The notes beneath the pieces are model-generated. The model worked only from the letters and a program-made list of their open reading frames with translations. It ran no database searches and was not told the origin of the DNA. DNA of 64,000 nucleotides from an uncultured Pelagibacteraceae bacterium (GTDB lineage Bacteria > Pseudomonadota > Alphaproteobacteria > Pelagibacterales > Pelagibacteraceae). Positions 32,004-55,268 of this stretch are shown here, piece after piece (the first letter of the stretch is position 1; each line of letters opens with the position of its first letter). The stretch lies in NCBI GenBank assembly GCA_902522895.1, contig CABYXD010000001.1, positions 5,223 through 69,222 of the forward strand. Direction: 5' to 3'. A program made the position numbers and the translations under genes.

Positions 32004-33338
32004 TTACTGTCCATATAGAACCGATGGCAACCATAATGCTATTTTTGGAAAAACAATAATTAGAACTAAACCAATTACCTGAATTACCATAAATTGCATC
32101 ATTCCATAATAAATATCCTTCAGATCCCATTCAGGAACAACACCTTTTAGAAAATATGCTGACAAAGCTACTGGTGGAGAAAGCCAGGCAGTTTGCAAAT
32201 TAACCGCCACCAATATTGCAAACCAAGTTAAATTGAATCCTAATGCTTCAATTAAAGGTAAGATTATTGGAACTATGATCATTACTATTGGCACCCACTC
32301 TAAAGGCCATCCTAGTAAAAAAATCATGGCCATTACCATTGCTAAAATCAAATATCTATTCATTTCTAAGTTTAATAAAAAATCAGTTAGTAACATAGGT
32401 GTACCTAGTCTTGAAAAGACAGCTCCAAAAAAGTTTGAAGCTGCAACTAGTACCATTATTAAGGCTGAAATTTCTAAAGTTTTGACTAATGCATCTTGTA
32501 ATTTTTTGAATGTCAATTTTTTATAAGCTACTGCTAAAACTAAAGAACCCATTGCTCCACATCCTGCTGCTTCTGTTGGAGTTGCAAATCCAAAAAGTAT
32601 ACTTCCAAGCGCCGCAAAAACTAATGCTGCTGGTGGAACTAAACCTAAAAAAAATTCAATCCATACATCTTTCATGCTGGTCGCTCTTAACTCGGGAGGT
32701 AAAACAGGTCCTAAACTTGGATTAATCCAACATCTAATTGTAGTATATGCTGCATACAAAGTAGCTAGCAAAACTCCTGGAATAATAGCTGCTGCAAATA
32801 AATCAGTGACAGGAATTTCCATTATTGGTCCCATTACAACAAGCATAATACTTGGAGGAATTAAAATACCTAAAGTTCCGCCAGCAGTAATTGTTCCAGC
32901 TGCCAATCTAACATTATAACCAGATTTATTCATAGATTTTGCTGCCATAATTCCTAAAATTGTAACTGATGCACCAACAATTCCCGTAGCTGCTGCAAAG
33001 ACAACAGACACAAATAATACAGCGTAATACAAAGATCCTCTAACCTTAGCTAGCATTAGTTGAAAAGCTGAAAATAATCTTTCCATTAATCCTGCTTGCT
33101 CCATCATAATACCCATAAAGACAAAGAGTGGGACGGCGGCCAATGTTTGTTCTGTCATGACCATTGAGAATTGTAAGGTCATTAAATAAAATACTAATTT
33201 TCCAAAACCTAAGTAACCAAATACAAAACCCAAAAAAATTAATGTAAATGAAATTGGAAACCCAACAAATATAGAAAAAAGCATCACCCCAATTAGAATA
33301 AAACCTAATATAGCTGGGTCTATAAATTCGGCTAACAT
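32004..33338 (-). CDS. dctM: TRAP transporter large permease
   Basis: AVPLFVFMG, GTLGILIPPS, TPTEAA, NLQTAWLSPP. Confidence 0.94.
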   Translation of the reverse strand: MLAEFIDPAILGFILIGVMLFSIFVGFPISFTLIFLGFVFGYLGFGKLVFYLMTLQFSMVMTEQTLAAVPLFVFMGIMMEQAGLMERLFSAFQLMLAKVRGSLYYAVLFVSVVFAAATGIVGASVTILGIMAAKSMNKSGYNVRLAAGTITAGGTLGILIPPSIMLVVMGPIMEIPVTDLFAAAIIPGVLLATLYAAYTTIRCWINPSLGPVLPPELRATSMKDVWIEFFLGLVPPAALVFAALGSILFGFATPTEAAGCGAMGSLVLAVAYKKLTFKKLQDALVKTLEISALIMVLVAASNFFGAVFSRLGTPMLLTDFLLNLEMNRYLILAMVMAMIFLLGWPLEWVPIVMIIVPIILPLIEALGFNLTWFAILVAVNLQTAWLSPPVALSAYFLKGVVPEWDLKDIYYGMMQFMVIQVIGLVLIIVFPKIALWLPSVLYGQ

Positions 33339-33953
33339 TTAATCTTCTGCTCCTGGCCATTTACCCTTAGTTGCAGCCCAATAACTTTTAAATAATTCTG
33401 AAATCCCCTGTATAAGTAAAAAGACAATACCAAACCATAAAGAAGCTTTAATAGGCCACATTAAAGGCATCCAAGCAGTATCCATTCCTCTTTCACCTCT
33501 CATAATTGACTCTTGAACAAATCCAGTTGTCATATAAAGAAAAACAATTAGACCAGGAAAGTAAAACAAAAGATATAACCAAAAATCTATTTTACCTTGA
33601 GTTTTAGTTTTAAAATTTCGATATAAAAAATCTGCTCTTATATGCACACCTTTTGATAAAGCGTAACCCGCTCCAAGCATAAATAAAGCACCATACATGA
33701 ATCTACTCATGTCATAAGCCCACATTGTTGGAGCTGTGAAAAGTTTTCTAGCTAAAACTTCATAAACCATTGCTAATATTAATGGAATGGTAATCCAACA
33801 AACTATATTTCCTATCCATTTACTGAATGAGTCTATTCTAGTAATTGTTAATGCCATCCATTTTGGCATATCACTTGGCATTGGTCCTGAACCACCTCGC
33901 CTCTCAGCGATCATTTCATCAGTAATATCTAATCTAGTTGGTTTATCGGACAT
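33339..33953 (-). CDS. dctQ: TRAP transporter small permease
   Basis: YEV.AR..F..PT.W, HIRAD; four TMs; lies between dctP and dctM. Confidence 0.92.
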   Translation of the reverse strand: MSDKPTRLDITDEMIAERRGGSGPMPSDMPKWMALTITRIDSFSKWIGNIVCWITIPLILAMVYEVLARKLFTAPTMWAYDMSRFMYGALFMLGAGYALSKGVHIRADFLYRNFKTKTQGKIDFWLYLLFYFPGLIVFLYMTTGFVQESIMRGERGMDTAWMPLMWPIKASLWFGIVFLLIQGISELFKSYWAATKGKWPGAED

Positions 33954-33963
33954 AAATTTCTTT

Positions 33964-34002
33964 AAAAAAAAACTAAAGCGGACTGTTATGTCCGCTTCAG
34001 TT
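33964..34002 (-). terminator. Intrinsic terminator-like hairpin between dctP and dctQ
   Basis: Minus strand AACTGAAGCGGAC-ATAACA-GTCCGCTTTAGTT followed by a T run; 13-bp stem with one G-U pair. Confidence 0.8.
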
Positions 34003-34023
34003 ATAATTATTTTTATCTAAATA

Positions 34024-35121: not shown

Positions 35122-35244
35122 TATTTTTCCTCTAGTTAGTTAAATTTAACGTCAGCATACAATCAGAAAAATATAGCTGACACAAGTGACAATTGAGTAA
35201 TATATGTATAAATAACAATAAACAAAAAAACTATTCAACTATAA

Positions 35245-36840
35245 ATGGAAATATTTGATTTTATTATTATTGGTGCAGGATCTGCGGGATGTGTTTTAGC
35301 AAATAGACTTTCAGAAAATTCAAACAACAAAGTAGCTTTAATCGAGGCCGGAGGTAAAGATAATTATCCATGGATACATATTCCAGTTGGATATTTTAAA
35401 ACTATGCATAACCCATCTGTTGATTGGTGTTACAAAACTGAGCCTGATGAAACAATGAATGGTAGATCAATTCGTTACCCTAGAGGAAAAACATTGGGAG
35501 GTAGCTCTTCTATAAATGGTCTTCTTTATATAAGAGGGCAAAATAGAGATTACGATGTTTGGCGACAAATGGGTAATTCTGGGTGGGGTTGGAATGATGT
35601 TCTTCCATATTTTATTAAATCTGAAAACCAGGAGAGAGGTAAAGATGAATTTCATGGTGTAGGTGGACCTTTATCTGTTTCAGATCAGAGAATTCAATTA
35701 CCTTTATTAAACGAATTTCAAAATGCTGCTGAAGAATTTGGTATTCCTAAAACTAAAGATTTTAATACTGGAGACAATCATGGTTGTGGATATTTTCAGG
35801 TAACTGAAAAAGATGGTTTTAGATGTAGCACAGCAGTTGGCTACTTAAATCCTATTAAAAAAAGAAAAAATTTGAAAATTATTACTAATGCTCATGTTAA
35901 AAAAATAAATTTTGAAAATAAAATTGCAAAAGAAGTTGAATATTGGCAGCAAAATGAATTAAAGAAAATATCAGCAAATAAAGAAATAATTTTATCTTCT
36001 GGAGCTATTGGTTCTCCCCAAATTCTTCAAACATCTGGAATAGGAAATTCAAAAAAATTAAAAAAGATAGGTGTTGAGATGGTTCATGAGTTAAATGGTG
36101 TTGGAGAAAATTTACAAGATCATTTGATGTTTAGACCAATTTATAAAGTTCATGGCTTAAAATCTCTTAACAAAAAAATAAATAGTTTGTTTGGAAATCT
36201 AATGATTGGTTTAGAATATATTTTTAATAGAAGCGGTCCAATGACTATGGGTGCTAGTCAAATGTGTATGTTTGCAAAAAGTGATCCATCCTTGGAATTA
36301 CCTGATTTACAGTGGCATGTTCAACCAATGAGTATGGACACTTTAGGTGCAACAAAAAATCATGATTTTCATGCTTTTACTCCTACTGTTTCTAATATCA
36401 GGCCAACAAGTAGGGGTCATGTCAGTATAGTTGATAAAGACTCAAGAACTTATGCAAAAGTTAAATTAAACTATCTTTCAACTGATCATGATAGAATAGT
36501 AGCAGCCAAAGGATTGAAACTAACAAGAAAAATTGTAATGGAATCTAAAACTTTTAAAAAATATAAACCTGAAGAATATAGACCAGGAATAAATATTAAT
36601 AACGATGAAGAGCTTGTTAAAGCAGGTTCGGATTATACTCAAACAATATTTCATCCTGTTGGGACTTGTAAAATGGGTCAGGACGATATGGCTGTAGTAG
36701 ATGAAAAATTAAAAGTAAGAGGAATTAAAAATTTAAGAGTTATTGATGCTTCTATAATGCCTAATATTACTTCTGGAAATACTAATGCACCAACGATAAT
36801 GATTGCAGAGAAAGGTGCAGATATGATACTTAAAAACTAA
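35245..36840 (+). CDS. GMC-family FAD oxidoreductase (isethionate or 3-hydroxypropionate dehydrogenase-like)
   Basis: GAGSAGCVLANRLS, WIHIPVGY, GGSSSING, NLQDH, FHPVGTCKMG, GNTNAPT. Confidence 0.9.
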   Translation: MEIFDFIIIGAGSAGCVLANRLSENSNNKVALIEAGGKDNYPWIHIPVGYFKTMHNPSVDWCYKTEPDETMNGRSIRYPRGKTLGGSSSINGLLYIRGQNRDYDVWRQMGNSGWGWNDVLPYFIKSENQERGKDEFHGVGGPLSVSDQRIQLPLLNEFQNAAEEFGIPKTKDFNTGDNHGCGYFQVTEKDGFRCSTAVGYLNPIKKRKNLKIITNAHVKKINFENKIAKEVEYWQQNELKKISANKEIILSSGAIGSPQILQTSGIGNSKKLKKIGVEMVHELNGVGENLQDHLMFRPIYKVHGLKSLNKKINSLFGNLMIGLEYIFNRSGPMTMGASQMCMFAKSDPSLELPDLQWHVQPMSMDTLGATKNHDFHAFTPTVSNIRPTSRGHVSIVDKDSRTYAKVKLNYLSTDHDRIVAAKGLKLTRKIVMESKTFKKYKPEEYRPGININNDEELVKAGSDYTQTIFHPVGTCKMGQDDMAVVDEKLKVRGIKNLRVIDASIMPNITSGNTNAPTIMIAEKGADMILKN

Positions 36841-37433
36841 TGTTCGTTGATTTAATTTCCCCAGACCAATTAACTATTTTAACTCAAATTATTTTAATTG
36901 ATCTTGTTTTGGCAGGTGATAACGCAATTATAATTGGAATGATTGCATCAAAATTTCCATTAGAACAAAGAAAGAAGATAATTTTTTGGGGAATTGGTGG
37001 AGCTGTAATATTAAGAATTATTTTAACTCTACTAACTGCTTATTTATTACAAATTACTGGATTAAGATTAATAGGTGGACTACTTCTACTTTATATAGTC
37101 TACAAACTATATAAGGATGTTATTAAAGGATCTAATCATGAAGATAATATTAATGTAGATAATTCCAATTTCTTTAAAGCAATTTGGACAATTTTATTAG
37201 CTGATTTTACAATGAGTTTAGACAATGTTTTAGGTGTTGCTGGAGCAGCTGGCGATCATTATACTCTTTTAGTTTTTGGTCTAGTATTATCAATTATATT
37301 AATGGCTACTGCCGCAACTTTAATATCTAATTGGATTAAAAAATATAAATGGATAGCTTGGGCAGGCTTATTGGCAATTCTAATTGTCGCTATTGAGTTG
37401 ATTTACACTGATATTAAAATATTATTTTTATAA
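36840..37433 (+). CDS. TerC-family (YjbE-type) membrane protein
   Basis: DLVLAGDNA and ADFTMSLDNVLGVAGAA motifs. Confidence 0.9.
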   Translation: MFVDLISPDQLTILTQIILIDLVLAGDNAIIIGMIASKFPLEQRKKIIFWGIGGAVILRIILTLLTAYLLQITGLRLIGGLLLLYIVYKLYKDVIKGSNHEDNINVDNSNFFKAIWTILLADFTMSLDNVLGVAGAAGDHYTLLVFGLVLSIILMATAATLISNWIKKYKWIAWAGLLAILIVAIELIYTDIKILFL

Positions 37434-38200
37434 TGTTCTTAAAAAAATATAACCTTAAAAGCAAAACAGCAGTTGTTACTGGTGCTGGAAAAGGTCTTGG
37501 GAGAGCTTGTGCAATAGCGCTTGCAGAAGCAGGGGCTAATCTAATTATAATTAGCAGAACTAAAAAAGATTTAGAAGAAGTTTCAAGAAAAATTAAAAAA
37601 CTTAGAGTTAAGTGTAAATCTTACGTTTGTGATGTTACTGAATATAATGAAATTAAGAATATCATAAATAAACAAGCTAAAATAGATATTTTAATAAATA
37701 ACGCTGGAAATAATATTCCTGAACATTTTACAAAAGTAAAAACAAAAAATATGGAATATCTCGTTAAGATAAATACAGTTTCAACATTTAATATTGCACA
37801 ATTGTGTGCACTTAAAATGATAAAATCCAAAAATAGAAAAAAAATTGGTGGGTCAATAGTAAATATGTCCTCTCAAATGGGTCATGTAGGTGGTCCAATT
37901 AGAAGTGTTTATAATATGAATAAATGGGGGCTTGAAGGTTTAACAAAAGGAATGTCTTTAGACTTAGCCAAATATAATATTAGAGTAAATACTGTTTGTC
38001 CTACATTTGTAGTAACTCCTATGACAAAAAAATTTTTAAAAAATAAAAAATTTAAAAAAGAAACATTAAATAATATTCCCCTTGGAAGGTTTGCTGAATT
38101 ATCTGAAATAGCATCATCTGTAGTTTTTTTAGTTTCCGATGCTGCTTCTATGATTACTGGAACTTCATTACTGGTTGATGGTGGATGGACTGCAAAATAA
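37433..38200 (+). CDS. SDR oxidoreductase, HpsO-like (candidate DHPS dehydrogenase)
   Basis: TGAGKGLG, NNAG, SSQMGHVGG..RSVY...K, NTVCPTF, VDGGWTA; SDR family secure, HpsO likeness from recalled motifs. Confidence 0.7.
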   Translation: MFLKKYNLKSKTAVVTGAGKGLGRACAIALAEAGANLIIISRTKKDLEEVSRKIKKLRVKCKSYVCDVTEYNEIKNIINKQAKIDILINNAGNNIPEHFTKVKTKNMEYLVKINTVSTFNIAQLCALKMIKSKNRKKIGGSIVNMSSQMGHVGGPIRSVYNMNKWGLEGLTKGMSLDLAKYNIRVNTVCPTFVVTPMTKKFLKNKKFKKETLNNIPLGRFAELSEIASSVVFLVSDAASMITGTSLLVDGGWTAK

Positions 38201-38985
38201 TATTAAGAGTAATTGTAATAATCTTTATTATCACAACTCCTTTAAAAGCGATTGAGTTTAAGGGTAAGTTTTTACAAGGTCATTTTATAATTGGAATTAC
38301 TGATCCATCAGCACAGATCATTATTGGTAAGAAAGAGGTTAAAGTCTCAAAAGATGGATATTTTGTATTTGGAATTGATCGAGATAGAAAATTTGATTTA
38401 ACAATAACTAAAATTAAAGATGGTAAAAAAGAAAAAATAATAAAAAAAGTTTTGAAAAGAAAATATAACATTCAAAGAATTGATGGTTTAGAAGAAAGTA
38501 AAGTAACGCCGCCTGAGTCTGTATATAAAAGAATTAAAGAGGAAAATAATAAGATTGGAGAAGCAAGAGCAATAAATTCCAATTTACCTTTTTTTAAAAA
38601 TCAATTTATAATGCCGGTTAAAGGAATTATTAGTGGAGTTTATGGAAGCCAAAGAATTTTAAATGGTAAACCAAAATGGCCTCATTACGGAATAGACATA
38701 GCTGCAAAACAAGGCACCATGATTAAATCCTCTGGTACAGGAATTGTCACGATGGCTGAAGAAGATCTTTATTACACTGGTGGTACAATTATAATGGATC
38801 ACGGTCATGGTATATCCACTATATATTCACATCTTGAGACAATTATAGTTTCTGTTGGTGATAAGATTAATCAGGGAGATATTATAGGAACTGTTGGATC
38901 CACTGGTAGATCAACTGGTCCCCATTTAGATTTTAGAGTAAATTGGTTTCAGACTAGACTCGATCCAATGTCAGTAATAAACTAA
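38185..38985 (+). CDS. M23-family metallopeptidase
   Basis: Signal peptide; HYGID, DHGHG..T.YSHL, GSTGRSTGPHLD. Confidence 0.9.
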   Translation: MDCKIILRVIVIIFIITTPLKAIEFKGKFLQGHFIIGITDPSAQIIIGKKEVKVSKDGYFVFGIDRDRKFDLTITKIKDGKKEKIIKKVLKRKYNIQRIDGLEESKVTPPESVYKRIKEENNKIGEARAINSNLPFFKNQFIMPVKGIISGVYGSQRILNGKPKWPHYGIDIAAKQGTMIKSSGTGIVTMAEEDLYYTGGTIIMDHGHGISTIYSHLETIIVSVGDKINQGDIIGTVGSTGRSTGPHLDFRVNWFQTRLDPMSVIN

Positions 38986-38989
38986 GACT

Positions 38990-39763
38990 ATGAAATCTCT
39001 TATAGAAAAAACATCCGATAAGCTCGTAAATGCATTTTTAAAAAATAAGATAATTTCACCGATCCCATCTAAATTCACAAAAAAACTTAAAGAGGCACAA
39101 AAATTAAGAGTATTATGTGAAAGTAAAATAAAACATACTGTGATTGGCTTTAAAGCTGCTGGTACAGGTATTCCCTTAATTAAAAAATTTAAAGAAAAAG
39201 AACCCTTTTACGCATCAGTTTATAAAAGAAACTTTTTAAAAAGTGGTAGAAGCGTAAAAATAAATAAAGCTACTTTGGGTATTGAACTTGAAGTTTGTTA
39301 TAAAATTAAAAAATCTTTTTTTTCATTTAAAGGGTTAATTACTATGAAAAATATATCTAAATATATTTCTAATATGGCGCCCTGTATTGAAGTAGTTGGT
39401 TATAGACAAAGGAAAAAAGGAATTACCTCTTTTGGTGATTTGTGTAGTGATTTTGGAGCAAACGTAAAATTTTTAGTAGGATCAGCAAAAAAATATAAAA
39501 GAATTAATATTGGTAATTTAAAAACTAATATTGCAAACAAAAAAATAAGTCAAAGTGTAACGGGAAATACAAATACAGTTTACATAAACCCATTAAACTC
39601 ACTAAGATTTGTATTAAATAAAATCAAAAAAGACAAAATTAATCTAGATAAAGATTTTTGGGTTTTTACTGGATCATCAGTTGGAGTTGTTCCAATTAAA
39701 GGAAAAGGTCTTTACGTAGGAAAAATTGACGAGTTGGGATCTGTAAAAGCTATAATCACATAA
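38990..39763 (+). CDS. Fumarylacetoacetate-hydrolase superfamily protein, 2-keto-4-pentenoate hydratase-like
   Basis: IGFK, EPFY, IELEV, PCIEVV..R, SDFGAN, VFTGS. Confidence 0.72.
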   Translation: MKSLIEKTSDKLVNAFLKNKIISPIPSKFTKKLKEAQKLRVLCESKIKHTVIGFKAAGTGIPLIKKFKEKEPFYASVYKRNFLKSGRSVKINKATLGIELEVCYKIKKSFFSFKGLITMKNISKYISNMAPCIEVVGYRQRKKGITSFGDLCSDFGANVKFLVGSAKKYKRINIGNLKTNIANKKISQSVTGNTNTVYINPLNSLRFVLNKIKKDKINLDKDFWVFTGSSVGVVPIKGKGLYVGKIDELGSVKAIIT

Positions 39764-40914
39764 TGGCTCTTCATTTTAGCAAAGAAGAATTTTTAAAAAG
39801 AAAAAAAGATGTTCTAAAGTCAATGAAAGAACAAAATTTAGATGCTCTTTTGATGTTTAGACAAGAGTCAATGTATTGGCTAACTGGATACGATACTTTT
39901 GGATACGTATTTTTTCAATCTCTTGTATTGGATCAAAAAGGAAATATTGTTTTATTAACTCGAGCGCCTGACTTAAGACAAGCACAAAATACATCAAATA
40001 TTGAAGATATTAGAATTTGGATTGATAAAGATGGGATAAATCCAACTGATGATCTTAAACAAATATTAAATGAACTTAATTTAAAAAACAAAAATATTGG
40101 GGTGGAGTATGAGGCTTATGGAATGACAGGCCGTAATGCTTTAAAATTAAATAAATCTTTAGAAAATTATTGTAAATTTGAAGATCATTCAGAATTAATT
40201 ACAAAACTAAGGGTAATAAAATCCAATGAAGAATTAGTTTATGTTAGAAAAGCTGCCGAGCTTGCTGATAAAGCACTTGATGAAGCTTGGAAATATTCAA
40301 AAGCTGGGGCAAGTGAAGCAAAAATTTTAGCTGAGATGCAAAGAGTTGTTCTAGAAGGTGGAGGTGATTATCCAGCTAATGAATATATTATTGGATCTGG
40401 ACCCAATGCATTGCTGTGTAGGTATCAAGCAGAAAAAAGAAATTTGTCAAATACAGATCAACTAAGTTTAGAGTGGGCTGGAACTTTTAAACATTACCAT
40501 TCGGCGATGTTTAGAACTATCCCTATAGGAAAAGCTAATCTAAAACATATCAAAATGCATGAAGCTTGTGTTGAAGCTTTAAAAAATTGTGCAAAAACAT
40601 TAATTCCAGGAAATACTGCGGGACAAGTCTTTGATATTCATGCAAAAATTTTTGATGATCTGGGTTTTAATAAAGCAAGAATGAATGCTTGCGGTTATTC
40701 TCTTGGTTCAACTTTTGCACCTAATTGGATGGATTGGCCAATGTTATACAACGGCAATCCATACGTGATTCAACCTGGTAATGTTTTTTTCATGCATATG
40801 ATCTTAATGGACTCAGAAAATAAAGTTGCTATGAATTTAGGTGAAACATATGTTGTGAATGACAAAGGTAATGAAAGATTGGGCAAAAAAAAACTTGATT
40901 TAGTAGTTTGTTAA
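39763..40914 (+). CDS. M24/creatinase-fold hydrolase (DoeA/EutD-like, canonical metal ligands altered)
   Basis: Creatinase-type N-domain (YWLTGYD), RVIKS.EE, LEWAG...YHSAMFRT, GYSLG. Confidence 0.82.
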   Translation: MALHFSKEEFLKRKKDVLKSMKEQNLDALLMFRQESMYWLTGYDTFGYVFFQSLVLDQKGNIVLLTRAPDLRQAQNTSNIEDIRIWIDKDGINPTDDLKQILNELNLKNKNIGVEYEAYGMTGRNALKLNKSLENYCKFEDHSELITKLRVIKSNEELVYVRKAAELADKALDEAWKYSKAGASEAKILAEMQRVVLEGGGDYPANEYIIGSGPNALLCRYQAEKRNLSNTDQLSLEWAGTFKHYHSAMFRTIPIGKANLKHIKMHEACVEALKNCAKTLIPGNTAGQVFDIHAKIFDDLGFNKARMNACGYSLGSTFAPNWMDWPMLYNGNPYVIQPGNVFFMHMILMDSENKVAMNLGETYVVNDKGNERLGKKKLDLVVC

Positions 40915-42215
40915 ATTTCTGATCTGGCTCTAAAACGTTCATAAAATAACCTCGTCTTAATACCAAAGTTTAGAAAAGGCTGTGGAGGTAACCATGTGGG
41001 TTTATTTCGTTTCTCAATTATTTCAATCTCTTTTGTTTGTTCATTACTAGCTTTAATAGCTATTTGCTCACCAAATAAAGTTGCAACACCAATTCCTGAG
41101 CCATTATAGCAACCAGCAACAAAAATATTTTCATCAATTTTTTCAAAAATTTGAGAACTATTTCTTGTTCTTGAGACTATGCCAGACCAAGAAGACTGAA
41201 TTAAATTATCTGGTAACTGTGGAAACCTTTTTTTTATTCCAATTTTATGTCTTATAGACCTTTTTTCTAGATCTGTTTGAGACATTTTAAAAGGATTATA
41301 AACTTCTGCAGTATTTCTAATTAAAATTCTTCTATCTTTTGTCATTCTAATTGTAGCACCCATTGGTTTAACAGGTAAAACACCCCACTCTTTTGGTTCT
41401 CCAATTAATTTGTATTCTTTATCCGTAAGCGATCTTGTCATACTTGCTGTTAAAGTTATCGGAAAATTATAATTAGTTTTAATTCCTAATGATTTCAAAA
41501 ATCCATTGGTAGCAAAAATAATTTTTTTGGTCTTAATAGATCCATATTTAAAATCACAATTTATTAAACCATTTACCTTTTTCCAGTTTATTAAAGATGA
41601 ATTTTCATATAAATTTACATTTTTAGGAAGTGTATCAATCATCGCTCTTACTAGTTTACCCGGATGTAATAACACTCCTCCTTTTGTATGAAGGGCAATG
41701 TTATAAAAATTAGTTCCTAATTTTTTTGTTAGATCATTGTTAAAGAGTAGAGTGTGATCAAATTTCAATTTAGTTAGAGTTTTAGAAAAATTTTCTAATA
41801 CTCTTTTATCTTCTATATTTGATGATGCAAAATATTTTCCACACTCATTCCACTCACAATCTACCTGGTGTTCTTTGATAAATCTTTTAACTGCATCTAT
41901 TCCTAATTTATAAATGTCTGCTTTTTTCTTATAACTTTCTAACTCTTTATTAGAGGTAAAACCATCATTAAGCGTTGTATCGACCAAATAACCAGAATTT
42001 CTTGAGCTAGCTCCTTCTCCAGCTAACTGGGAGTCCACCAATAATATTTTTTGTTTTGGATAAAGTTGTCCTAATTTTCTAGCAGCAGATAAACCAGTAT
42101 ATCCAGCTCCTATAATCAACCATTCACAATTTAAGTTTGAGGAAAGAGTTAAAATGTTTGTTCGAGGATTTAGATCATTGATCCAGCTACAATAATTATC
42201 ATTTACAACTTCCAT
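40911..42215 (-). CDS. FAD-dependent oxidoreductase, DAO/PuuB-like family
   Basis: IIGAGYTGLSAA, GASSRNSG, WSG, GCYNGSG. Confidence 0.88.
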   Translation of the reverse strand: MEVVNDNYCSWINDLNPRTNILTLSSNLNCEWLIIGAGYTGLSAARKLGQLYPKQKILLVDSQLAGEGASSRNSGYLVDTTLNDGFTSNKELESYKKKADIYKLGIDAVKRFIKEHQVDCEWNECGKYFASSNIEDKRVLENFSKTLTKLKFDHTLLFNNDLTKKLGTNFYNIALHTKGGVLLHPGKLVRAMIDTLPKNVNLYENSSLINWKKVNGLINCDFKYGSIKTKKIIFATNGFLKSLGIKTNYNFPITLTASMTRSLTDKEYKLIGEPKEWGVLPVKPMGATIRMTKDRRILIRNTAEVYNPFKMSQTDLEKRSIRHKIGIKKRFPQLPDNLIQSSWSGIVSRTRNSSQIFEKIDENIFVAGCYNGSGIGVATLFGEQIAIKASNEQTKEIEIIEKRNKPTWLPPQPFLNFGIKTRLFYERFRARSEI

Positions 42216-42254
42216 AGTTGAAGATTACGATAAATGTTTACTTTTTAAAAGATG

Positions 42255-44039: not shown

Positions 44040-44149
44040 AAAACTAGAGCCTCTCCAATGTATATAATTTATTAAAATTCGTTTGTTAATTTTTGCGATT
44101 AATATATAAGATTTTACGAATTTCAAACAAACAATTCGACACAAGAAAT

Positions 44150-44434: not shown

Positions 44435-44438
44435 AAAT

Positions 44439-45605
44439 ATGGAAATTCCAAAAAGTTTTTTAGGTTATAAAAGAGAAAATGGCAGAGCTGGTACAAGAAA
44501 TCATGTAATCATTCTTCCAGTTGACGATATTTCTAACGCTTGTGCTGAAGCAGTCGCAAACAATATTAAAGGAACAATAGCACTTCCCCACTCATATGGA
44601 AGACTTCAATTTGGAGCAGATCTAGAACTTCATTTCAGAACCATGATTGGAACAGGGAGTAACCCTAATGTAGCGGCTGTAATTGTAATTGGTATTGAGC
44701 CTAAGTGGACAAAAAAAATTGTTGATGGAATAGCTAAAACTGGAAAGCCTGTTGAAGGTTTTCATATAGAAAGAACCGGAGATATTGGAACAGTCATGAA
44801 AGCTTCTAAAAAAGCTCAAGAGTTTGTGATGTGGGCCTCTGAAAAACAAAGAGAGGAATGTCCGATGAGTGATCTTTGGATATCGGTTAAATGTGGAGAA
44901 TCAGATACTACATCAGGCTTAGCTGCAAACCCAACAGTTGGAAATTTAATGGATAAATTAGAACCTATGGGTGTCCATTTATGTTTTGGAGAGACATCAG
45001 AATTAACAGGTGCTGAAAAAGTTTGTGCAACAAGAGGAGCAACAAAAGAAGCTTCAGATAAATTTATGAAAACTTGGAGTGCTTACAATGATTTTATATT
45101 AAAAGAAGCAACAGATGACCTGTCTGAAAGTCAACCAACAGCAGGAAATATTGCTGGAGGTTTAACAACTATTGAAGAAAAAGCTTTTGGTAATTTCCAA
45201 AAAATTGGTAATTGTAAATTTGTTGATGTTTTAGAGCCAGCAGAAGAGCCAACAAAAGGAAAAGGTTTATACTTTATGGATACGTCTTCAGCAGCAGCTG
45301 AATGTGTAACACTCCAAGCAGCAGCAGGTTTTAACATACATTTATTTCCAACAGGTCAAGGTAATATTGTTGGAAACCCAATCGAACCTGTTATAAAATT
45401 AACTGCTAATCCTCTAACTGTTAAAGGAATGGGTGAACATATTGATTGTGATGTTTCAAAAATTCTTTCAAGAGAAATGAATATGTCTCAAGCAGGGGAT
45501 GAGTTAATCAAAACAACAATGCGAGTAGCAAACGGACGATTGACTTGTGCCGAAGCTTTAGGTCATAAAGAATTTGTAATGACCAAACTTTACAGAAGTG
45601 CATAA
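44439..45605 (+). CDS. suyB: (2R)-sulfolactate sulfo-lyase beta subunit (UxaA family)
   Basis: [58 protein letters not shown] end; next to xsc. Confidence 0.88.
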
Positions 45606-45620
45606 TCAATAAATCCTTAA

Positions 45621-46694
45621 ATGTATTTAAAAAAAAACTTGGTTTTTATACCAGGAATAGTTCTTGCATTTGTTCTTTATACTCTCTCTCAAGGTTTTAA
45701 TAACATAATTGGTATCGAAATTTTAGGGTATGATAAAAGTCCCATTTCTACTGCAATGATTGCAATTCTTCTGGGTATTTTTTTTGGAAATGTATTTAAA
45801 GTTCGGGATGGTTTTCAGAAAGGTTTAGATTTTACAAGAGAGTATATCTTAAAACTTGGTATTATTTGTCTTGGTATTCAACTAAAACCATTTGAATTTT
45901 TAGACTTTGGCAAGATTGCAATTCCATTAATTATAGTATCTATGATAAGCGTTTTAATTGTTATTAAACTTTTAATAAAAAAACTAAAAATTCCAACCAG
46001 AATGGCTTATTTAATATCAATTGGGAGTACTGTTTGTGGAACTACAGCAATCGTAGCAACAGCACCAGTTATTAAAGCAAGTAAAAATGAAACTTCTTAT
46101 GCAATAGCAAACATTACTTTATTTGGAATATTGTCTATGCTTATTTATCCTTATTTTGCCAATTTTTATTTTGATGGTGAATCATTACTTGTAGGTCTTT
46201 TTTTAGGGACTTCTATTCATGAAACCTCACAAGTTGCTGCTGCAGGATTAATTTATGATCAGCAATTCAATAGTCCAGAAACTTTAAATATAGCTACAGT
46301 AACTAAGCTTATCAGAAATACCTTTTTAGTAATTATGATCCCTTTATTTGCTTTTCTTTATAATAGAGGTAAAGTTAAAGAAAAAAATTATTCTATACTG
46401 AATATTTTTCCTTATTTTGTTTTGGGTTTTGTTGGAATGATTATTTTAAGAAATATAGGTGACCAATTCTTTGTTATTAACAGTGAAAATAATTGGATCA
46501 AAACAATTGATTTTGTCAAATCGTCATCTAAAGTTTTTTTAACAATGGCCATGGCTGCTATTGGTCTATCAACTAATATAAAAGATATTAGAAAAATGGG
46601 ATATAAACCTTTCTTGGTTGGTTTTATAGCTATGTTAACTGTAGGGATTGTTTGTATTCTAACAATTGAGATCTATTTAAAATTATTTATTTAG
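45621..46694 (+). CDS. YeiH/UPF0324 (TauZ/SuyZ-type) putative sulfate/sulfite exporter
   Basis: GSTVCGTTAIVA, GTSIHETSQV, TKLIR, AMAAIGL; follows suyB by 15 nt. Confidence 0.85.
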   Translation: MYLKKNLVFIPGIVLAFVLYTLSQGFNNIIGIEILGYDKSPISTAMIAILLGIFFGNVFKVRDGFQKGLDFTREYILKLGIICLGIQLKPFEFLDFGKIAIPLIIVSMISVLIVIKLLIKKLKIPTRMAYLISIGSTVCGTTAIVATAPVIKASKNETSYAIANITLFGILSMLIYPYFANFYFDGESLLVGLFLGTSIHETSQVAAAGLIYDQQFNSPETLNIATVTKLIRNTFLVIMIPLFAFLYNRGKVKEKNYSILNIFPYFVLGFVGMIILRNIGDQFFVINSENNWIKTIDFVKSSSKVFLTMAMAAIGLSTNIKDIRKMGYKPFLVGFIAMLTVGIVCILTIEIYLKLFI

Positions 46695-47781: not shown

Positions 47782-47860
47782 AAAAATATATTCTATCTTG
47801 ATTATTACTCATATATATAACTGTCAATAGAGATATTAATAACCTGCTCAAAATTTAAAA

Positions 47861-48841: not shown

Positions 48842-48842
48842 A

Positions 48843-49862: not shown

Positions 49863-49960
49863 ATTTTTTGTAATAAATTTTTAAAATAAATTAAATAATG
49901 AAAAAACATTAGATTAATATGTATACATCTTATGTGCTAATATCAATATTAGAACTACTG

Positions 49961-51022: not shown

Positions 51023-51027
51023 TTGTT

Positions 51028-51153
51028 TTAATTAAAGTTAACTAAAGTACCAATAATAATTACCCCCCAATAAGCTGAAAGTGCAACTGCAATACCTGTT
51101 TTTAATTTGTTCTTTTTTATTTCTAATGGAAGTTTTTTAATTATTTCTGGCAT
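51028..51153 (-). CDS. Small single-TM protein, 41 aa (not in ORF track)
   Basis: Manual translation MPEIIKKLPLEIKKNKLKTGIAVALSAYWGVIIIGTLVNFN; TTGACA-N16-TATTCA upstream (51162-51189). Confidence 0.6.
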   Translation of the reverse strand: MPEIIKKLPLEIKKNKLKTGIAVALSAYWGVIIIGTLVNFN

Positions 51154-51219
51154 GTAAATCGTGAATACACCCAGTAAAAAAAATGTCAAACTTTAATTGA
51201 TTAAAACTAATTTTTTTAA

Positions 51220-51570
51220 TCAGTAAATTGTTGCTCCAAATACTTTGACCACCCCATCCTCTACTCCCAAGACTAATCTACCTAAGAATTCTCCTGGTAT
51301 TTCTTTATTGGTTACTTTAATTAGAACCGTTATATGTTCTCCTCTTCTCAAGGTCCCAAAAGGAACGTAAATTTCCTTCAAATTAGTAATTAACTTATTA
51401 TTGGCCCACTGTTTTCCTAGTTCTACTTCATTAGCTCCAAAAAGCATTTGAGTAGAAAAGTCTCTTGTAAATCCACCATAATCTTTAAGATTAGACGATC
51501 TAACCAAATTTTCCCAAAATGGTTTTCCAATCTCAAATATTTCCTTGTCTGATTTAGATAACAAATCCAT
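51220..51570 (-). CDS. Hypothetical protein downstream of aprA (possibly DUF3887/NTF2-like)
   Basis: 116-aa ORF 28 nt after the aprA stop; helix-then-beta-sheet pattern ending VKVFG. Confidence 0.72.
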   Translation of the reverse strand: MDLLSKSDKEIFEIGKPFWENLVRSSNLKDYGGFTRDFSTQMLFGANEVELGKQWANNKLITNLKEIYVPFGTLRRGEHITVLIKVTNKEIPGEFLGRLVLGVEDGVVKVFGATIY

Positions 51571-51598
51571 AGATGTTTATTACTCTTATTTGATTTGG

Positions 51599-53458
51599 TT
51601 AAGAAGCTTTTTTCTTCTCTTTTTCATCAACGATATGATAAACGGGCACTTTTTCCATTGTAAACTTACCGGTCTTAGGATCTCTTCTTGAAACTGTTAA
51701 GCAATGCCAATTATCATCATCTAGTTTCATAAAGTCACCTCTATAATAATATCCAGGCCACCTTGTTTCTTCTCTAAACATAGTGTGTTCCGTTACACAT
51801 TGAGAAGTAAGAGCCCTATGTTTAAGTTCCCAAGCTCTCATAAGTTGGTGATAATCCTCAGCACCAACGTTTTCAAGATCTTCCTCTAGCCATGCTAAAA
51901 GTTCTAAACCACGTTTTAGCATATTAGCATTAGTCATGTAATTATTTGCTATTCCACCAACATATTCATCCATAATTCTCTGCAATCTTTGTAGACCTTG
52001 AATTGGAGAAATATAACTGGGTGAAACGGTTCCTCCAGTTATTTCGTTTTGAGCAACTGTGTAGTTCTCAAGTGGTTTGTAGATTTTTGTTTTAAAATCT
52101 TCACATTGTTTATCCGTTATATTAATTCCATCTGCTTTTTGGTCTTCAATATATTTAACAGCAGCTTTTGCTGCTAATCTACCTTCAGTAAATGAACCAG
52201 AGGAAAATTTGTGTGCACTTCCACCCACTGTATCACCTGCTCCAAATAATCCGTCAATTGTAAGCATTCTATTGTATCCCCAAAAATATTCTGGTGGAGA
52301 TAAATCTTCTGGACCGCTTACCCAAGCTCCTGAACATGTTGCATGAGAGCCCATTACGTAGGGTTCAGATGTTGTTAATTCTGGATTTGTATATTTTGGA
52401 TCTATGTTTTGAGATGCCCAAACAACTGCTTGACCTACAGTCATTCCTAAAAAATTTTCCCAACCAACAGTTTCTAAATGTGGATCTTGGAAAGCTTCTG
52501 TTGTGACCATATGGATTGGTCCGCCACCAGCCATAGTTTCTTGAATAAAAGCATGATTTCTTAAACAAGTTGGAGTTGGGTGATGATCAATATATTCACC
52601 AACTAATTCTTTGGTTTGATCATACCATTTCTTCTCGTAGTTTTCACCATTTGCGTTTTGAGTATAAGTTTTTAGATGTAAGAAATAAGCACCGACTGGC
52701 CCATATCCATCTTTAAATCTACATAACACAATTCTATTTTCCATTTGTGTCATCTTTGCTCCAGCAGCAATGGGTAAAGCGTAAGCAGAACCATTACTCC
52801 AAGGCGCATACCAAGTTCTTCCCATTCCTTCACCAACGGCTCTTGGTTTAAATATATGTGAAGCACCCCCTGCTGCAACAATTACAGCTTTAGCTCTAAA
52901 TACATGAAAATCTCCTGTTCTCATGTTAAACCCAACAGCACCACCTACTCTATTTTCTTTAGCTTCATCCATTAAAAGATGAGTAATCATAATTCTATTG
53001 TAAATCTTATCTGCAGATTTTTTCGCAGCTTCAGCAACTATCGGCTTATAACTTTCGCCATGAATCATTATTTGCCATTTGCCTTCTCTTAAGTATCTGC
53101 CAGTTTCTTCATTTTTCATCATTGGAAGACCCCATTCATCAAACATATGAACTGTTGAGTCTACATGACGAGCCATGTCATAACCTAAATCCTCTCTAAC
53201 CATTCCCATTAAATCATTTCTTGCATATCTAACATGGTCTTCTGGTTGATTTTCACCCCATTGCATTCCCATGTAACAGTTTATTGCATAAAGGCCTTGT
53301 GCAACTGCTCCACTTCTATCAATATTGGCTTTTTCAACACAAATAATTTTCATGTCTCTTCCCCAGTGTCTAGCTTCAAAGGTAGCACCAGTGCCAGCCA
53401 TACCACCACCAACTACTAAAACATCACAATCTTCATAATGAGTTTTATGTTTTGCCAT
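51599..53458 (-). CDS. aprA: Adenylylsulfate (APS) reductase alpha subunit
   Basis: RSGAVAQGL.AIN, GKWQIMIHGESYK, GR.WYAPW, RFKDGYGPVGA, GHKFSSGS-like SAHKFSSGS, REETRWPG. Confidence 0.97.
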   Translation of the reverse strand: MAKHKTHYEDCDVLVVGGGMAGTGATFEARHWGRDMKIICVEKANIDRSGAVAQGLYAINCYMGMQWGENQPEDHVRYARNDLMGMVREDLGYDMARHVDSTVHMFDEWGLPMMKNEETGRYLREGKWQIMIHGESYKPIVAEAAKKSADKIYNRIMITHLLMDEAKENRVGGAVGFNMRTGDFHVFRAKAVIVAAGGASHIFKPRAVGEGMGRTWYAPWSNGSAYALPIAAGAKMTQMENRIVLCRFKDGYGPVGAYFLHLKTYTQNANGENYEKKWYDQTKELVGEYIDHHPTPTCLRNHAFIQETMAGGGPIHMVTTEAFQDPHLETVGWENFLGMTVGQAVVWASQNIDPKYTNPELTTSEPYVMGSHATCSGAWVSGPEDLSPPEYFWGYNRMLTIDGLFGAGDTVGGSAHKFSSGSFTEGRLAAKAAVKYIEDQKADGINITDKQCEDFKTKIYKPLENYTVAQNEITGGTVSPSYISPIQGLQRLQRIMDEYVGGIANNYMTNANMLKRGLELLAWLEEDLENVGAEDYHQLMRAWELKHRALTSQCVTEHTMFREETRWPGYYYRGDFMKLDDDNWHCLTVSRRDPKTGKFTMEKVPVYHIVDEKEKKKAS

Positions 53459-53928
53459 TAATAATAAACCCCTTTTTTAAATGAATTTTTTGGTACTGAC
53501 GGAAGTTCACCATCTATATTTAAACCTTCAGGCTCTAGGTATAATCTTTGTGAGCTTAGCTCACCTTGTTTAATTTTTTCACCATCAGCTAATTTAGGAA
53601 TAAATTTTCCCCATGGTTTAGTTGTAATTGGAGAAACAAAATCTTTAGTAGTTCCATTTCTAAATTTTATTTTCCATGAGATTGTCCCTTTTTCTTCTTC
53701 TCTTCTTACTCTCACGCTATGACCCATTGGAGCAAAATCGGCATAACCTCTAACATCAATTGCATGATTTGGACAAGCTTTGACACACGAGTAACACTCC
53801 CAACAAAAATTAGGTTCAATATTTTTTGCTCGTCTAATATTTTCATCTATGTGCATAATATCTGATGGACAAATATCAACACAATGGCCGCAACCATCAC
53901 ATCTAGTCATGTATACAAAAGTTGACAT
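53458..53928 (-). CDS. aprB: Adenylylsulfate reductase beta subunit
   Basis: CDGCGHCVDICP and CWECYSCVKACP; RGYADF; W.IKFRNG. Confidence 0.97.
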   Translation of the reverse strand: MSTFVYMTRCDGCGHCVDICPSDIMHIDENIRRAKNIEPNFCWECYSCVKACPNHAIDVRGYADFAPMGHSVRVRREEEKGTISWKIKFRNGTTKDFVSPITTKPWGKFIPKLADGEKIKQGELSSQRLYLEPEGLNIDGELPSVPKNSFKKGVYY

Positions 53929-53959
53929 AATTTAATTATTTCCTTTTCTAGTTAACATA

Positions 53960-54754
53960 TTAATAGTGTTTTGGCTCTTCTCTTTTTATACCTAGGCCAA
54001 ATTGCTCAGGTGCATCCGCTGGTGGAGGAAGATTATCTCTCGATCCATCAGCTTCAGCTAAATTTTTTTGTATTGCTGCTCCAGGTTTATAAAACATATG
54101 AGCAAATTTAGACCAATAAACACCACCAAATAAAATTAGATTTGAAGCCACAAATAAAGTTAAAAATAAAAATGAAAGACCAGATTGTCCGTTAAACTGC
54201 GTGTAAGACCATGCTAACCCAAAAGTTGAACATGCTAATAAGGCTAAAACAAATAAGTCTGCTTTAATAATTCTATACCAAGGATGAGCTTCTGCTGAAA
54301 CATCAACTCTTAAGAAAAACCAAAACCAATACCCACCAATACATGTTAAAATTGCACCAACATGCCATAGCATTGACCACATTGATGATGAAGATTTATC
54401 AGAACCAGTATAGCAAAATACTAAAACAGCAGATGACAACCAAAATATAATTGTTCCATACATTCCAAGTACATGCGAAAGTCTTCTTTTTCCAAATCCG
54501 AGCTCTGAAGTAGTACCAATATCAACAACTGTTGTTTTAGCTATTATAGAAACTTTCTCTGTAACACCTATTTCTCTTGTCGCTTGGAGTTTAGCTTTCT
54601 TAGCATTATTAAAAAAATACGTAATATTTTTGTGATGTATCATTTGAATAATTGTTCCAAGTGCAATCAATACAATCATAGCAATTATAAAGCTCTGCAT
54701 TGCAAATGGTGGAACCGTTTCAGCTAATAAAGAAAATGGATTATTATTTAACAT
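53960..54754 (-). CDS. aprM: AprM membrane anchor of APS reductase
   Basis: Multi-TM protein directly upstream of aprB; RR..H..GMYG, GGYWFWFF.RVDV, WSKFAHMFYKP. Confidence 0.9.
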   Translation of the reverse strand: MLNNNPFSLLAETVPPFAMQSFIIAMIVLIALGTIIQMIHHKNITYFFNNAKKAKLQATREIGVTEKVSIIAKTTVVDIGTTSELGFGKRRLSHVLGMYGTIIFWLSSAVLVFCYTGSDKSSSSMWSMLWHVGAILTCIGGYWFWFFLRVDVSAEAHPWYRIIKADLFVLALLACSTFGLAWSYTQFNGQSGLSFLFLTLFVASNLILFGGVYWSKFAHMFYKPGAAIQKNLAEADGSRDNLPPPADAPEQFGLGIKREEPKHY

Positions 54755-54811
54755 TCTACCCTTAAGTTAAATTATATTGAATTAATTTTATTGTTTTCTA
54801 ATCTAGTTATT

Positions 54812-54840
54812 TTCATAATTCAACCTTATCAATTAGTCAA
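54812..54840 (-). promoter_or_regulatory. Candidate sigma-70 promoter of aprMBA
   Basis: Minus strand TTGACT-N17-TATGAA, 57 nt upstream of the aprM start. Confidence 0.45.
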
Positions 54841-54871
54841 TATGACCTTAATAACAACCACTGATTTACAT

Positions 54872-55264
54872 TTAACGTTTATAATGCTGATTTTGAGGGA
54901 TTACAGACCTAACACCACCTTGGGGATTCTCAACGTCTCCTTCTCTACGAGGAATCAAATGAAAATGGCAATGCAAAATAGACTGACCAGATATTTTACC
55001 AATATTTGTACCTAAATTAAAACCTTTTACTTTTTTATCTTTATCAATAATTTCATTCTTAATTATTTTAATAAGTTTATTACATGCAATTAATTCCTCA
55101 TTTGATAAATCAAAATAATCTTTGATATGTCTTTTAGGAATTATTAGACAATGATATTTTGATACAGGATAAGAGTCATAACTTGCATAGGCAAGATCAT
55201 TTTCATAAACACTTCCACTTTGTTTGATGTTACAAAATAAACATGGGTTATTTGGATTATTCAT
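54872..55264 (-). CDS. HIT-family nucleotidyl hydrolase/transferase
   Basis: CLFC, YPVS..H.LIIPKRH, GQSILHCHFHLIPR histidine triad. Confidence 0.93.
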   Translation of the reverse strand: MNNPNNPCLFCNIKQSGSVYENDLAYASYDSYPVSKYHCLIIPKRHIKDYFDLSNEELIACNKLIKIIKNEIIDKDKKVKGFNLGTNIGKISGQSILHCHFHLIPRREGDVENPQGGVRSVIPQNQHYKR

Positions 55265-55268
55265 ATTG

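What the first reader, a model, noticed from the sequence alone, without database searches (positions are those of the whole stretch)
32004..55264. Putative sulfonate-to-energy supercluster: uptake, two desulfonation routes, sulfite export and Apr-based sulfite oxidation within 23 kb
Seen: TRAP dctPQM, GMC dehydrogenase, HpsO-like SDR, xsc, suyAB, YeiH- and TauE-type exporters and aprMBA all lie in one region. Established: Xsc cleaves sulfoacetaldehyde (C2 route from taurine/isethionate), SuyAB cleaves (R)-sulfolactate (C3 route from DHPS/cysteate), both release sulfite, and AprM-anchored AprAB runs oxidatively (sulfite + AMP to APS) in sulfur oxidisers. Inferred: this heterotroph funnels C2 and C3 sulfonates to acetyl-phosphate and pyruvate, then detoxifies the sulfite or harvests electrons from it via Apr. 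The individual genes are known in SAR11-type genomes; their clustering as one functional unit is the notable point.
Basis: partly seen in the sequence, partly recalled or inferred. Interest (0 to 1): 0.75.

Follow-up and report, generated by a model that had tools for sequence, protein, structure and literature searches.

The report
Pelagibacter sulfonate-cleavage and sulfite-disposal locus
In this marine Pelagibacter (SAR11) genome, genes for two enzymes that release sulfite from algal sulfonates lie beside predicted exporters and an APS reductase that likely disposes of that sulfite; the arrangement is ordinary for the genus and its role is already published, leaving open which enzyme would finish the pathway, because no standard ATP sulfurylase was found.

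Summary
The genes are real and intact, but this is not one 23-kb unit: 13 of 23 ORFs fit the story, in seven strand blocks. The conserved core is HIT-aprMBA-hyp116-tauE-(yeiH)-suyBA-xsc: suyAB, tauE and xsc follow apr in 70 of 70 close loci. Here three sugar-epimerase genes interrupt it. The TRAP-GMC-SDR block lies 2-32 kb from xsc in relatives. Its binding protein is a different subtype from the tested isethionate/DHPS binder, and the SDR lacks the HpsO specificity residue. hpsN, pta and tauABC lie about 85 kb away in a complete relative. Apr removing sulfite from Xsc/SuyAB is already published for SAR11. The energy half is open: no canonical Sat in 61 genomes. Candidate APS sinks are a small nucleotidyltransferase paired with an APS-kinase-like gene (beside apr in the sister family, elsewhere in this genus, not found in this 53%-complete genome) and the adjacent HIT protein. 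The scan found that pair and hyp116 before on other DNA.

The parts
32004..33338 (-). dctM, TRAP large permease
   Evidence: TIGR00786 over cut-off
33339..33953 (-). dctQ, TRAP small permease
   Evidence: PF04290
34024..35121 (-). dctP, TRAP binding protein of the SmoM/TakP-like class; homologue of the sulfonate binder SAR11_0864 but a different subtype; ligand untested
   Evidence: PF03480; best PDB match 2hzk; two subtypes at this slot; supplement comparison by eye
35245..36840 (+). GMC flavoprotein dehydrogenase, candidate isethionate dehydrogenase (IseJ-like; inferred from position opposite the TRAP genes)
   Evidence: NF002550 599/605 bits, BetA equivalog 502/732
36840..37433 (+). TerC/YjbE membrane protein (travels with GMC and SDR)
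   Evidence: TIGR03717 over cut-off; synteny
37433..38200 (+). SDR dehydrogenase, substrate unknown; not shown to be HpsO
   Evidence: 27-29% to HpsO-position proteins, Gln column is Met
38185..42215 (.). intervening genes: M23 peptidase (38185-38985 +), FAH-like (38990-39763 +), M24/DoeA-like (39763-40914 +), DAO oxidoreductase (40911-42215 -); variable among relatives
42255..44039 (-). xsc, sulfoacetaldehyde acetyltransferase (594 aa from the ATG shared with relatives)
   Evidence: TIGR03457 963/676 bits
44150..44434 (+). suyA, sulfolactate sulfo-lyase small subunit
   Evidence: SAF domain; 49% to the C. pinatubonensis gene
44439..45605 (+). suyB, sulfolactate sulfo-lyase large subunit
   Evidence: PF04295 and PF20629; 65% to the C. 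pinatubonensis gene; source names
45621..46694 (+). YeiH-family membrane protein, putative sulfate/sulfite exporter; optional (45 of 70 loci)
   Evidence: PF03601
46687..47781 (-). TauE/SafE-family putative sulfite exporter; core (70 of 70 loci)
   Evidence: PF01925
47861..51022 (.). insertion of three low-GC NDP-sugar epimerase/dehydratase genes (galE 47861-48841 +; 48843-49862 -; 49961-51022 -), unrelated to sulfonates
   Evidence: GC 24-27%; an epimerase at this site in 2 of 70 relatives
51220..51570 (-). hyp116, conserved 116-aa NTF2-like protein directly after aprA; function untested
   Evidence: no Pfam/NCBIfam hit; 80 of 80 loci, median gap 22 bp; model pLDDT 94.6; best Z 10.8, rmsd 3.0, 105 aligned
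51599..53458 (-). aprA, APS reductase flavoprotein subunit
   Evidence: TIGR02061 991/642; PDB 2fja E 3e-198
53458..53928 (-). aprB, two-[4Fe-4S] subunit with lineage I cysteine spacing
   Evidence: TIGR02060 183/136; Cys 10, 13, 16, 20, 42, 45, 48, 52 against Table 2 of PMC2211403
53960..54754 (-). aprM, membrane anchor
   Evidence: hydropathy; 42-53% to aprM-position genes of other Alphaproteobacteria
54872..55264 (-). HIT-family nucleotide hydrolase with intact triad; last gene of the pabBAC run, 117 bp before aprM; candidate APS hydrolase or phosphorylase (untested)
   Evidence: PF01230; 66 of 67 loci; gaps and motif

Best explanation
This is the standard Pelagibacter core locus in which xsc and suyAB lie next to tauE and aprMBA, and it likely works as a sulfite-handling module: Xsc and SuyAB would release sulfite from sulfoacetaldehyde and (R)-sulfolactate, and AprMBA would oxidise it with AMP to APS, passing two electrons to the membrane. 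Shown here: gene identities, intact frames, conserved order, lineage I Apr features, and no canonical Sat in the genomes searched. Inferred from known families: the reactions and the oxidative direction. TauE and YeiH probably export surplus sulfite or sulfate. APS must then be broken down by a non-canonical enzyme to give back the adenylate; the likeliest candidate is the small CysC-paired HxGH nucleotidyltransferase encoded elsewhere in the genus, and the second is the adjacent HIT protein. The TRAP-GMC-TerC-SDR block is a separate, loosely linked uptake and oxidation unit, probably for isethionate or a related sulfonate. Taurine uptake, HpsN and Pta are encoded in another locus.
For: Order conserved: tauE, suyB, suyA and xsc follow hyp116 in 70 of 70 loci with at least 5.9 kb downstream; aprMBA precede it in 67 of 67 (these are the best 80 of 577 matches, so close kin). 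aprA-xsc gap median 3.5 kb in 25 of 28 same-genus genomes. In the sister family xsc is still 13-20 kb from aprA in 10 of 17. All 16 aprA genomes among the 20 at least 90% complete hold xsc. Two complete genomes of another genus of the family lack aprA, xsc and suyB together. AprB cysteine positions and aprM match oxidative lineage I. Published: Apr likely removes sulfite from organosulfur degradation, naming suyAB and xsc as core genes, with aprAB under strong purifying selection (PMC12636525); the same hypothesis with apr transcript data (PMC5069961); SAR11 Tpa, Xsc and AprAB peptides in Antarctic water, cited in PMC10356861.
Against: Co-occurrence is not strict: G038 (99% complete) and G044 (92%) have xsc but no aprA. 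The sister family has aprA without suyB (0 of 24). In 14 other Alphaproteobacteria whose apr loci I fetched, neither xsc nor suyAB lay near apr. Synteny in close kin may be inherited without selection. PMC10356861 states that cultured SAR11 has not been shown to excrete sulfate from taurine. The APS-consuming step is unidentified, and 2 of the 16 high-completeness aprA genomes (G008, G010, both 92%) gave no HxGH match.
Confidence: 0.72

Rival explanations
1. One reading: the whole 23 kb is one co-regulated unit from uptake to energy gain.
For: dctP shares a contig with xsc in 15 of 23 genomes, median gap 6.4 kb. In G010 and G018 only two to four genes separate the GMC-TerC-SDR block from xsc. 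The DctP family includes a tested isethionate/DHPS binder.
Against: Gap range 2-32 kb, and 8 of 23 on different contigs. Ten other ORFs and seven strand blocks. hpsN, pta, tauABC, tpa-like and ald about 85 kb away in G013. HpsP is in relatives but was not found in this genome, where another SDR fills its slot. PMC11131964 says SAR11 hpsO, hpsP and hpsN are not in one operon.
Confidence: 0.12
2. Apr is only a detoxification valve: APS is hydrolysed to AMP and sulfate (for example by the HIT protein) with no substrate-level ATP, and most sulfite leaves through TauE.
For: HIT precedes aprM in 66 of 67 loci with an intact triad in 72 of 73 matches. HIT proteins hydrolyse APS, and some phosphorolyse it to ADP (PMC4613722, Table 1 and a cited title). 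No Sat. TauE is core.
Against: HIT is coupled to pabC (median gap 3 bp) and about 100 bp from aprM. It was not found in the sister family that has apr (0 of 24), nor near apr in 14 other Alphaproteobacteria. It is fused to an HNH domain in G020. The genomes lacking it also lack the pab genes, so its partner cannot be told.
Confidence: 0.3
3. The pathway is completed with ATP gain by a miniature, non-canonical ATP sulfurylase (123-131 aa HxGH protein) encoded with a CysC-like gene outside this window.
For: In the sister family the pair abuts hyp116-aprABM, and the HxGH gene is found in exactly the 17 of 24 genomes with aprA (same locus, so not independent). It is found in 25 of 36 same-genus genomes. 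Complementary to Sat: other Alphaproteobacteria with aprA have Sat in 14 of 15 and this protein in 0 of 15. In one island the order is cysC-HxGH-pyruvate-kinase-like, in another cysC-sat-pyruvate-kinase-like. A CysC-like gene lies beside it in 68 of 80 viral loci.
Against: Sequence and fold are closer to NMN and phosphopantetheine adenylyltransferases (Z 10.7 and 10.1) than to ATP sulfurylase (best Z 7.9, rmsd 3.6, 116 aligned). Profile comparison with a canonical Sat is not significant (probability 0.4%). No sulfotransferase among 48 viral neighbour families scanned. In this genus the pair lies among methyl-group and acyl-CoA genes far from apr. Not found in this genome (53% complete). The phyletic contrast rests on one or two lineage events.
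Confidence: 0.33
4. Apr runs reductively to supply sulfite for assimilation.
For: AprAB is reversible (PMC5069961).
Against: No Sat or CysD to make APS. No sulfite reductase reported in marine SAR11 (PMC5029164). apr transcripts fall under sulfur limitation. Lineage I features.
Confidence: 0.03

Closest known systems
aprMBA, xsc and suyAB of Pelagibacteraceae (PMC12636525; PMC5069961; PMC2211403)
   Same: Same genes, same genus, same proposed role of Apr in removing sulfite from organosulfur degradation; no Sat.
   Different: The passages I read list the genes but do not describe their fixed order with tauE, hyp116 and HIT. This copy carries a three-gene epimerase insertion.
sat-aprMBA of lineage I sulfur oxidisers (Allochromatium vinosum type; PMC2211403)
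   Same: aprM-aprB-aprA order, AprB cysteine spacing, hyp116 after aprA in 3 of 14 other Alphaproteobacteria examined.
   Different: No sat; sulfite comes from sulfonates, not from sulfide or sulfur oxidation.
Taurine-to-sulfate pathway of 'Ca. Taurinisymbion ianthellae' (tauABC, tpa, xsc, aprAB, sat, qmo; PMC10356861)
   Same: Xsc-derived sulfite oxidised through APS in a heterotroph.
   Different: It has Sat and Qmo rather than AprM, and sulfate release was tested there; here suyAB is added and Sat is missing.
hpsRNOUP-suyAB cluster of Cupriavidus pinatubonensis and hpsKLMNOP of roseobacters
   Same: SuyA and SuyB orthologues (49% and 65%); a TRAP system and an SDR nearby.
   Different: No hpsN or hpsP here; DctP gave no blastp hit to two HpsK proteins at E 1e-5; the SDR lacks the HpsO Gln.
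iseJ-iseKLM isethionate cluster (Weinitschke et al. 2010; described second-hand in PMC6453916; the paper itself was not held)
   Same: Flavin-dependent dehydrogenase beside a TRAP transporter, feeding Xsc.
   Different: Orthology of this GMC to IseJ was not tested for want of a reference sequence.

Membership tests
Xsc (sulfoacetaldehyde acetyltransferase) | TIGR03457 equivalog score over cut-off | tested here: met
   963 vs 676 bits
SuyAB (sulfolactate sulfo-lyase) | split UxaA-family pair (SAF subunit plus large subunit), orthologous to the pair in a DHPS cluster | tested here: met
   49% and 65% to C. pinatubonensis versus about 30% to other UxaA-family proteins
Lineage I (AprM-type) APS reductase | aprA and aprB over curated cut-offs; membrane gene aprM directly upstream | tested here: met
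Lineage I (AprM-type) APS reductase | AprB cluster I cysteines at 20, 42, 45, 48 | tested here: met
   against PMC2211403 Table 2
Lineage I (AprM-type) APS reductase | oxidative activity, sulfite + AMP to APS, in vivo | not testable with these tools
   needs enzyme assay or culture
Complete Sat-Apr sulfite oxidation pathway | canonical ATP sulfurylase (Sat or CysDN) in the genome | tested here: not met
   TIGR00339 over cut-off in 0 of 61, including 20 genomes at least 90% complete; none in G429; CysD 0 of 5. This genome alone is 53% complete.
HpsO (DHPS dehydrogenase, SDR) | Ser-x-Gln with Tyr-xxx-Lys (Gln147 of RpHpsO sets specificity; PMC11131964) | tested here: not met
   Ser, Tyr and Lys present, Gln column is Met
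HpsO (DHPS dehydrogenase, SDR) | orthology to the tested SAR11 HpsO homologue | tested here: inconclusive
SAR11_0864-type sulfonate-binding protein | close orthology to SAR11_0864 | tested here: inconclusive
   C-terminal ~118 residues about 46% identical, read by eye from a cut supplement cell; that stretch matches the 59-60% subtype of G004, G006, G026 and G033 much better
IseJ (isethionate dehydrogenase) | GMC flavoprotein orthologous to IseJ, next to iseKLM | tested here: inconclusive
   GMC and TRAP adjacency met; no reference IseJ sequence
ATP sulfurylase (for the HxGH protein outside the window) | Sat catalytic-domain sequence and fold | tested here: inconclusive
   same superfamily fold, but NMNAT and PPAT rank above Sat; hhalign not significant
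APS-cleaving HIT proteins | intact histidine triad; activity on APS | tested here: inconclusive
   triad intact; activity not testable here

The most novel reading that the evidence does not exclude
Pelagibacter completes sulfonate-derived sulfite oxidation without Sat: AprMBA (with hyp116 as an unrecognised accessory) makes APS, and a miniature HxGH nucleotidyltransferase, or the adjacent HIT protein, converts APS to sulfate plus ATP or ADP. The most abundant marine heterotroph would then gain substrate-level phosphorylation and electrons from every sulfonate sulfur through an undescribed enzyme that marine phages also carry.
Probability: 0.35. Interest if true: 0.75.

Novelty: already known. 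Interest (0 to 1): 0.33.

Why it matters
The cluster itself is a routine copy of a genus-wide locus, and its proposed role is in print. Its value is that it sharpens an acknowledged gap. Most SAR11 lack ATP sulfurylase and have not been shown to excrete sulfate (PMC10356861), yet aprAB is among their most conserved genes (PMC12636525). An Apr that makes APS without an APS sink would drain AMP. Three small soluble proteins (the HxGH nucleotidyltransferase with its CysC-like partner, HIT, hyp116) can each be expressed and assayed. The result would say whether SAR11 gains ATP from sulfonate sulfur or only detoxifies it, which bears on marine sulfur flux and SAR11 energetics.

Tried and rejected
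HpsO label: rejected. BetA label for the GMC: under the equivalog cut-off. Promoter and terminator scan of 42-56 kb: 65 promoter-like sites against 75 expected, 6 terminators against 5, so uninformative, although the best-scoring site lies just before aprM. Another sulfite oxidase: the PF00174 hit in this genome (C34) looks like MsrP followed by a membrane partner (label recalled), not SorA; SoeABC was not searched. Complex prediction of hyp116 with AprAB: no answer, score 0.00, not evidence either way. ESM Atlas look-up of hyp116: not answered. Genome-collection scan for hyp116 returned only close kin (79 Pelagibacteraceae titles and one short contig titled Flavobacteriales), so breadth came from a 400-genome class draw. 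HIT had no confirmed viral relative. Metatranscriptomes: holders shared at most 0.14 of the words. Contigs from 4 of 24 listed runs, laid at 80% likeness on 42000-57800, cover xsc, suyAB and aprMBA, but they are relatives' contigs, may hold DNA and cannot rank genes or show co-transcription. Plasmid searches with the GMC, SDR and DctP gave only distant hits under 60%. Weinitschke 2010 was not held. No paper describing the fixed order xsc-suyAB-tauE-aprMBA, or naming an APS sink for SAR11, turned up in searches; the library lacks most subscription papers. The conserved-operon table of bioRxiv 10.64898/2026.04.03.716430 (supplement, not read) and file 1 of the PMC11485210 supplement (not searchable) may bear on this.
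Full report
Organism and observation. The window is about 30% GC from a 557-kb, 53%-complete assembly. Source names of near-identical proteins and titles of the closest loci are Pelagibacter or Pelagibacteraceae. SuyA and SuyB are 49% and 65% identical to the UxaA-family pair that follows hpsN-hpsO in Cupriavidus pinatubonensis.

The conserved core. In the 80 closest loci (best of 577 matches to hyp116), all 70 with enough downstream DNA carry tauE, suyB, suyA and xsc; yeiH is in 45 and an epimerase in 2. All 67 with enough upstream DNA carry aprA, aprB and aprM, and 66 carry HIT. In a separate draw of 61 genomes, aprA is over cut-off in 49, xsc in 45, and suyB is found in 32 of 36 same-genus and 0 of 24 sister-family genomes. 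aprA and xsc share a contig in 25 of 28 same-genus genomes holding both, median gap 3.5 kb; this window has the longest gap, 7.6 kb. In the sister family they are 13-20 kb apart in 10 of 17. Of 20 genomes at least 90% complete, 16 have aprA and all 16 have xsc; two have xsc without aprA (tallied). Two complete genomes of another genus lack aprA, xsc and suyB together. In 14 other Alphaproteobacteria whose apr loci I fetched (14 of 15 found in a 400-genome draw), xsc and suyAB were not near apr. The linkage is thus a Pelagibacter trait, inherited rather than repeatedly assembled.

The uptake block is separate. dctP shares a contig with xsc in 15 of 23 genomes, 2-32 kb away. Two DctP subtypes occupy the slot. 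The tested binder SAR11_0864 (isethionate Kd 0.48 uM in supplement file 3; also DHPS according to PMC13335735, section 12) matches the 59-60% subtype, judged by eye from a cut supplement cell. That subtype brings its own cassette. The window's DctP is the other subtype, so its ligand is likely but not shown to be a sulfonate. The GMC opposite it fits IseJ by position (PMC6453916 passages), but no reference sequence was available. The SDR is 27-29% identical to three HpsO-position proteins and has Met where RpHpsO has its specificity Gln (PMC11131964, section 22 part 1). An HpsP orthologue sits behind the NCS1 permease in G013, G004, G006, G020 and G033 but was not found in this genome. HpsN (E 1e-156 to 8v35), Pta, a ComC-like dehydrogenase, tauABC, an omega-aminotransferase and Ald form a second locus about 85 kb from apr in the complete genome G013. 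No orthologue of these was found in this half-complete genome. The C3 route and the taurine route are therefore not contained in the span.

How it works. By known enzymology, Xsc gives acetyl phosphate and sulfite, and SuyAB gives pyruvate and sulfite. aprM and the AprB cysteine positions place the Apr in oxidative lineage I (PMC2211403 passages). The inferred flow is sulfite + AMP to APS with electrons to the membrane, and TauE or YeiH as overflow exporters. This reading is published: PMC12636525 (one passage) names aprAB, suyAB and xsc together; PMC5069961 (passages) gives the detoxification hypothesis and the absence of sat; PMC10356861 (passages) lists SAR11 among taurine degraders with the APS route, notes that most lack ATP sulfurylase, and says sulfate excretion has not been shown in culture. 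bioRxiv 10.64898/2026.04.03.716430 (passages) lists the apr pair as a conserved adjacency, and bioRxiv 10.1101/2024.12.10.627767 (passages) reports SAR11 suyAB expression in a bloom.

The open step. Canonical Sat passed its cut-off in 0 of 61 genomes and CysD in 0 of 5, whereas 14 of 15 other Alphaproteobacteria with aprA have Sat. Candidate 1 is a 123-131-aa HxGH nucleotidyltransferase paired with a short CysC-like gene. It abuts hyp116-aprABM in the sister family (17 of 24, the same 17 that have aprA), lies elsewhere in 25 of 36 same-genus genomes, and was found in 0 of the 15 other Alphaproteobacteria. One island has it where another island has a sat-like gene, between cysC and a pyruvate-kinase-like gene. 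A CysC-like gene is beside it in 68 of 80 viral loci (best of 445). Against: its model (pLDDT 91.6) is closer to NMN and phosphopantetheine adenylyltransferases than to Sat, profile comparison with Sat is not significant, no sulfotransferase appeared among 48 of 70 viral neighbour families scanned, and it was not found in this genome, G008 or G010. Candidate 2 is the HIT gene in the window. HIT proteins can cleave APS (PMC4613722 passages), and the triad is intact, but the gene is coupled to pabC, lies about 100 bp from aprM and was not found in the sister family. G364 (99% complete) has aprMBA with neither Sat nor the HxGH protein found, so other solutions, or none, exist. hyp116 follows aprA in 80 of 80 close loci, in the 4 sister-family loci read and in 3 of 14 other Alphaproteobacteria; it folds as an NTF2-like domain, which gives no function.

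Earlier findings. I reached the HxGH pair and hyp116 leads before looking (notes). The scan had noted both on other DNA (e1-3569003, e1-698015, e1-957686). These are AI notes and are not counted as support. A word search for this cluster found nothing.

Verdict. Observation partly confirmed; interpretation partly supported. The pathway logic is already known for this genus. The fixed gene order did not turn up in my ten searches but is a modest addition. The interest lies in the testable missing APS step, whose best candidate is outside this window.

Noticed in passing
window 47861-51022: Three NDP-sugar epimerase/dehydratase genes (GC 24-27%) inserted between tauE and hyp116; the site takes inserts in a few relatives (L111, L127, L140).
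   Followed up: partly
window 29764-30516 versus L003:4201-5205: The slot after the NCS1 permease holds an SDR here and in several relatives, but an HpsP orthologue in G013, G004, G006, G020 and G033: a gene swap that may change S-DHPS use.
   Followed up: partly
L204:4728-12864: The SAR11_0864-like DctP subtype comes with a cassette: 3-hydroxyacid dehydrogenase, aldehyde dehydrogenase, SDR, FKBP-rhodanese fusion, flavin monooxygenase, PhyH.
   Followed up: partly
L027:4575-7204 and L028:6543-11118: Two polysaccharide-island cassettes, cysC-HxGH-pyruvate-kinase-like and cysC-sat-pyruvate-kinase-like-sulfotransferase, each with a 243-aa membrane gene. The role of the pyruvate-kinase-like gene is unexplained.
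   Followed up: partly
L012:10459-11454: In G020 the HIT gene before aprM is fused to an HNH endonuclease domain, 331 aa.
   Followed up: no
L223:6935-10057: G364 (99% complete, not SAR11-type) has an isolated aprMBA with no Sat, HxGH protein, HIT or hyp116 found.
   Followed up: partly
L228 and L229: G066 and G198 carry two tandem aprA-like genes after aprB.
   Followed up: no
window 55269-60146: metC-MFS-pabB-pabA-pabC run directly upstream of HIT-aprMBA, conserved in the genus.
   Followed up: partly
window 19367-25899: NADH dehydrogenase genes (5877-19735), tRNA-Asp and tRNA-Val, lon, clpX, clpP, trigger factor and tRNA-Leu: ordinary housekeeping region (names from sequence recall).
   Followed up: no
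L163: A 2.4-kb contig titled Flavobacteriales carries aprA-hyp116-tauE with hyp116 87% identical to this genome's; probably a mis-binned Pelagibacter fragment.
   Followed up: no
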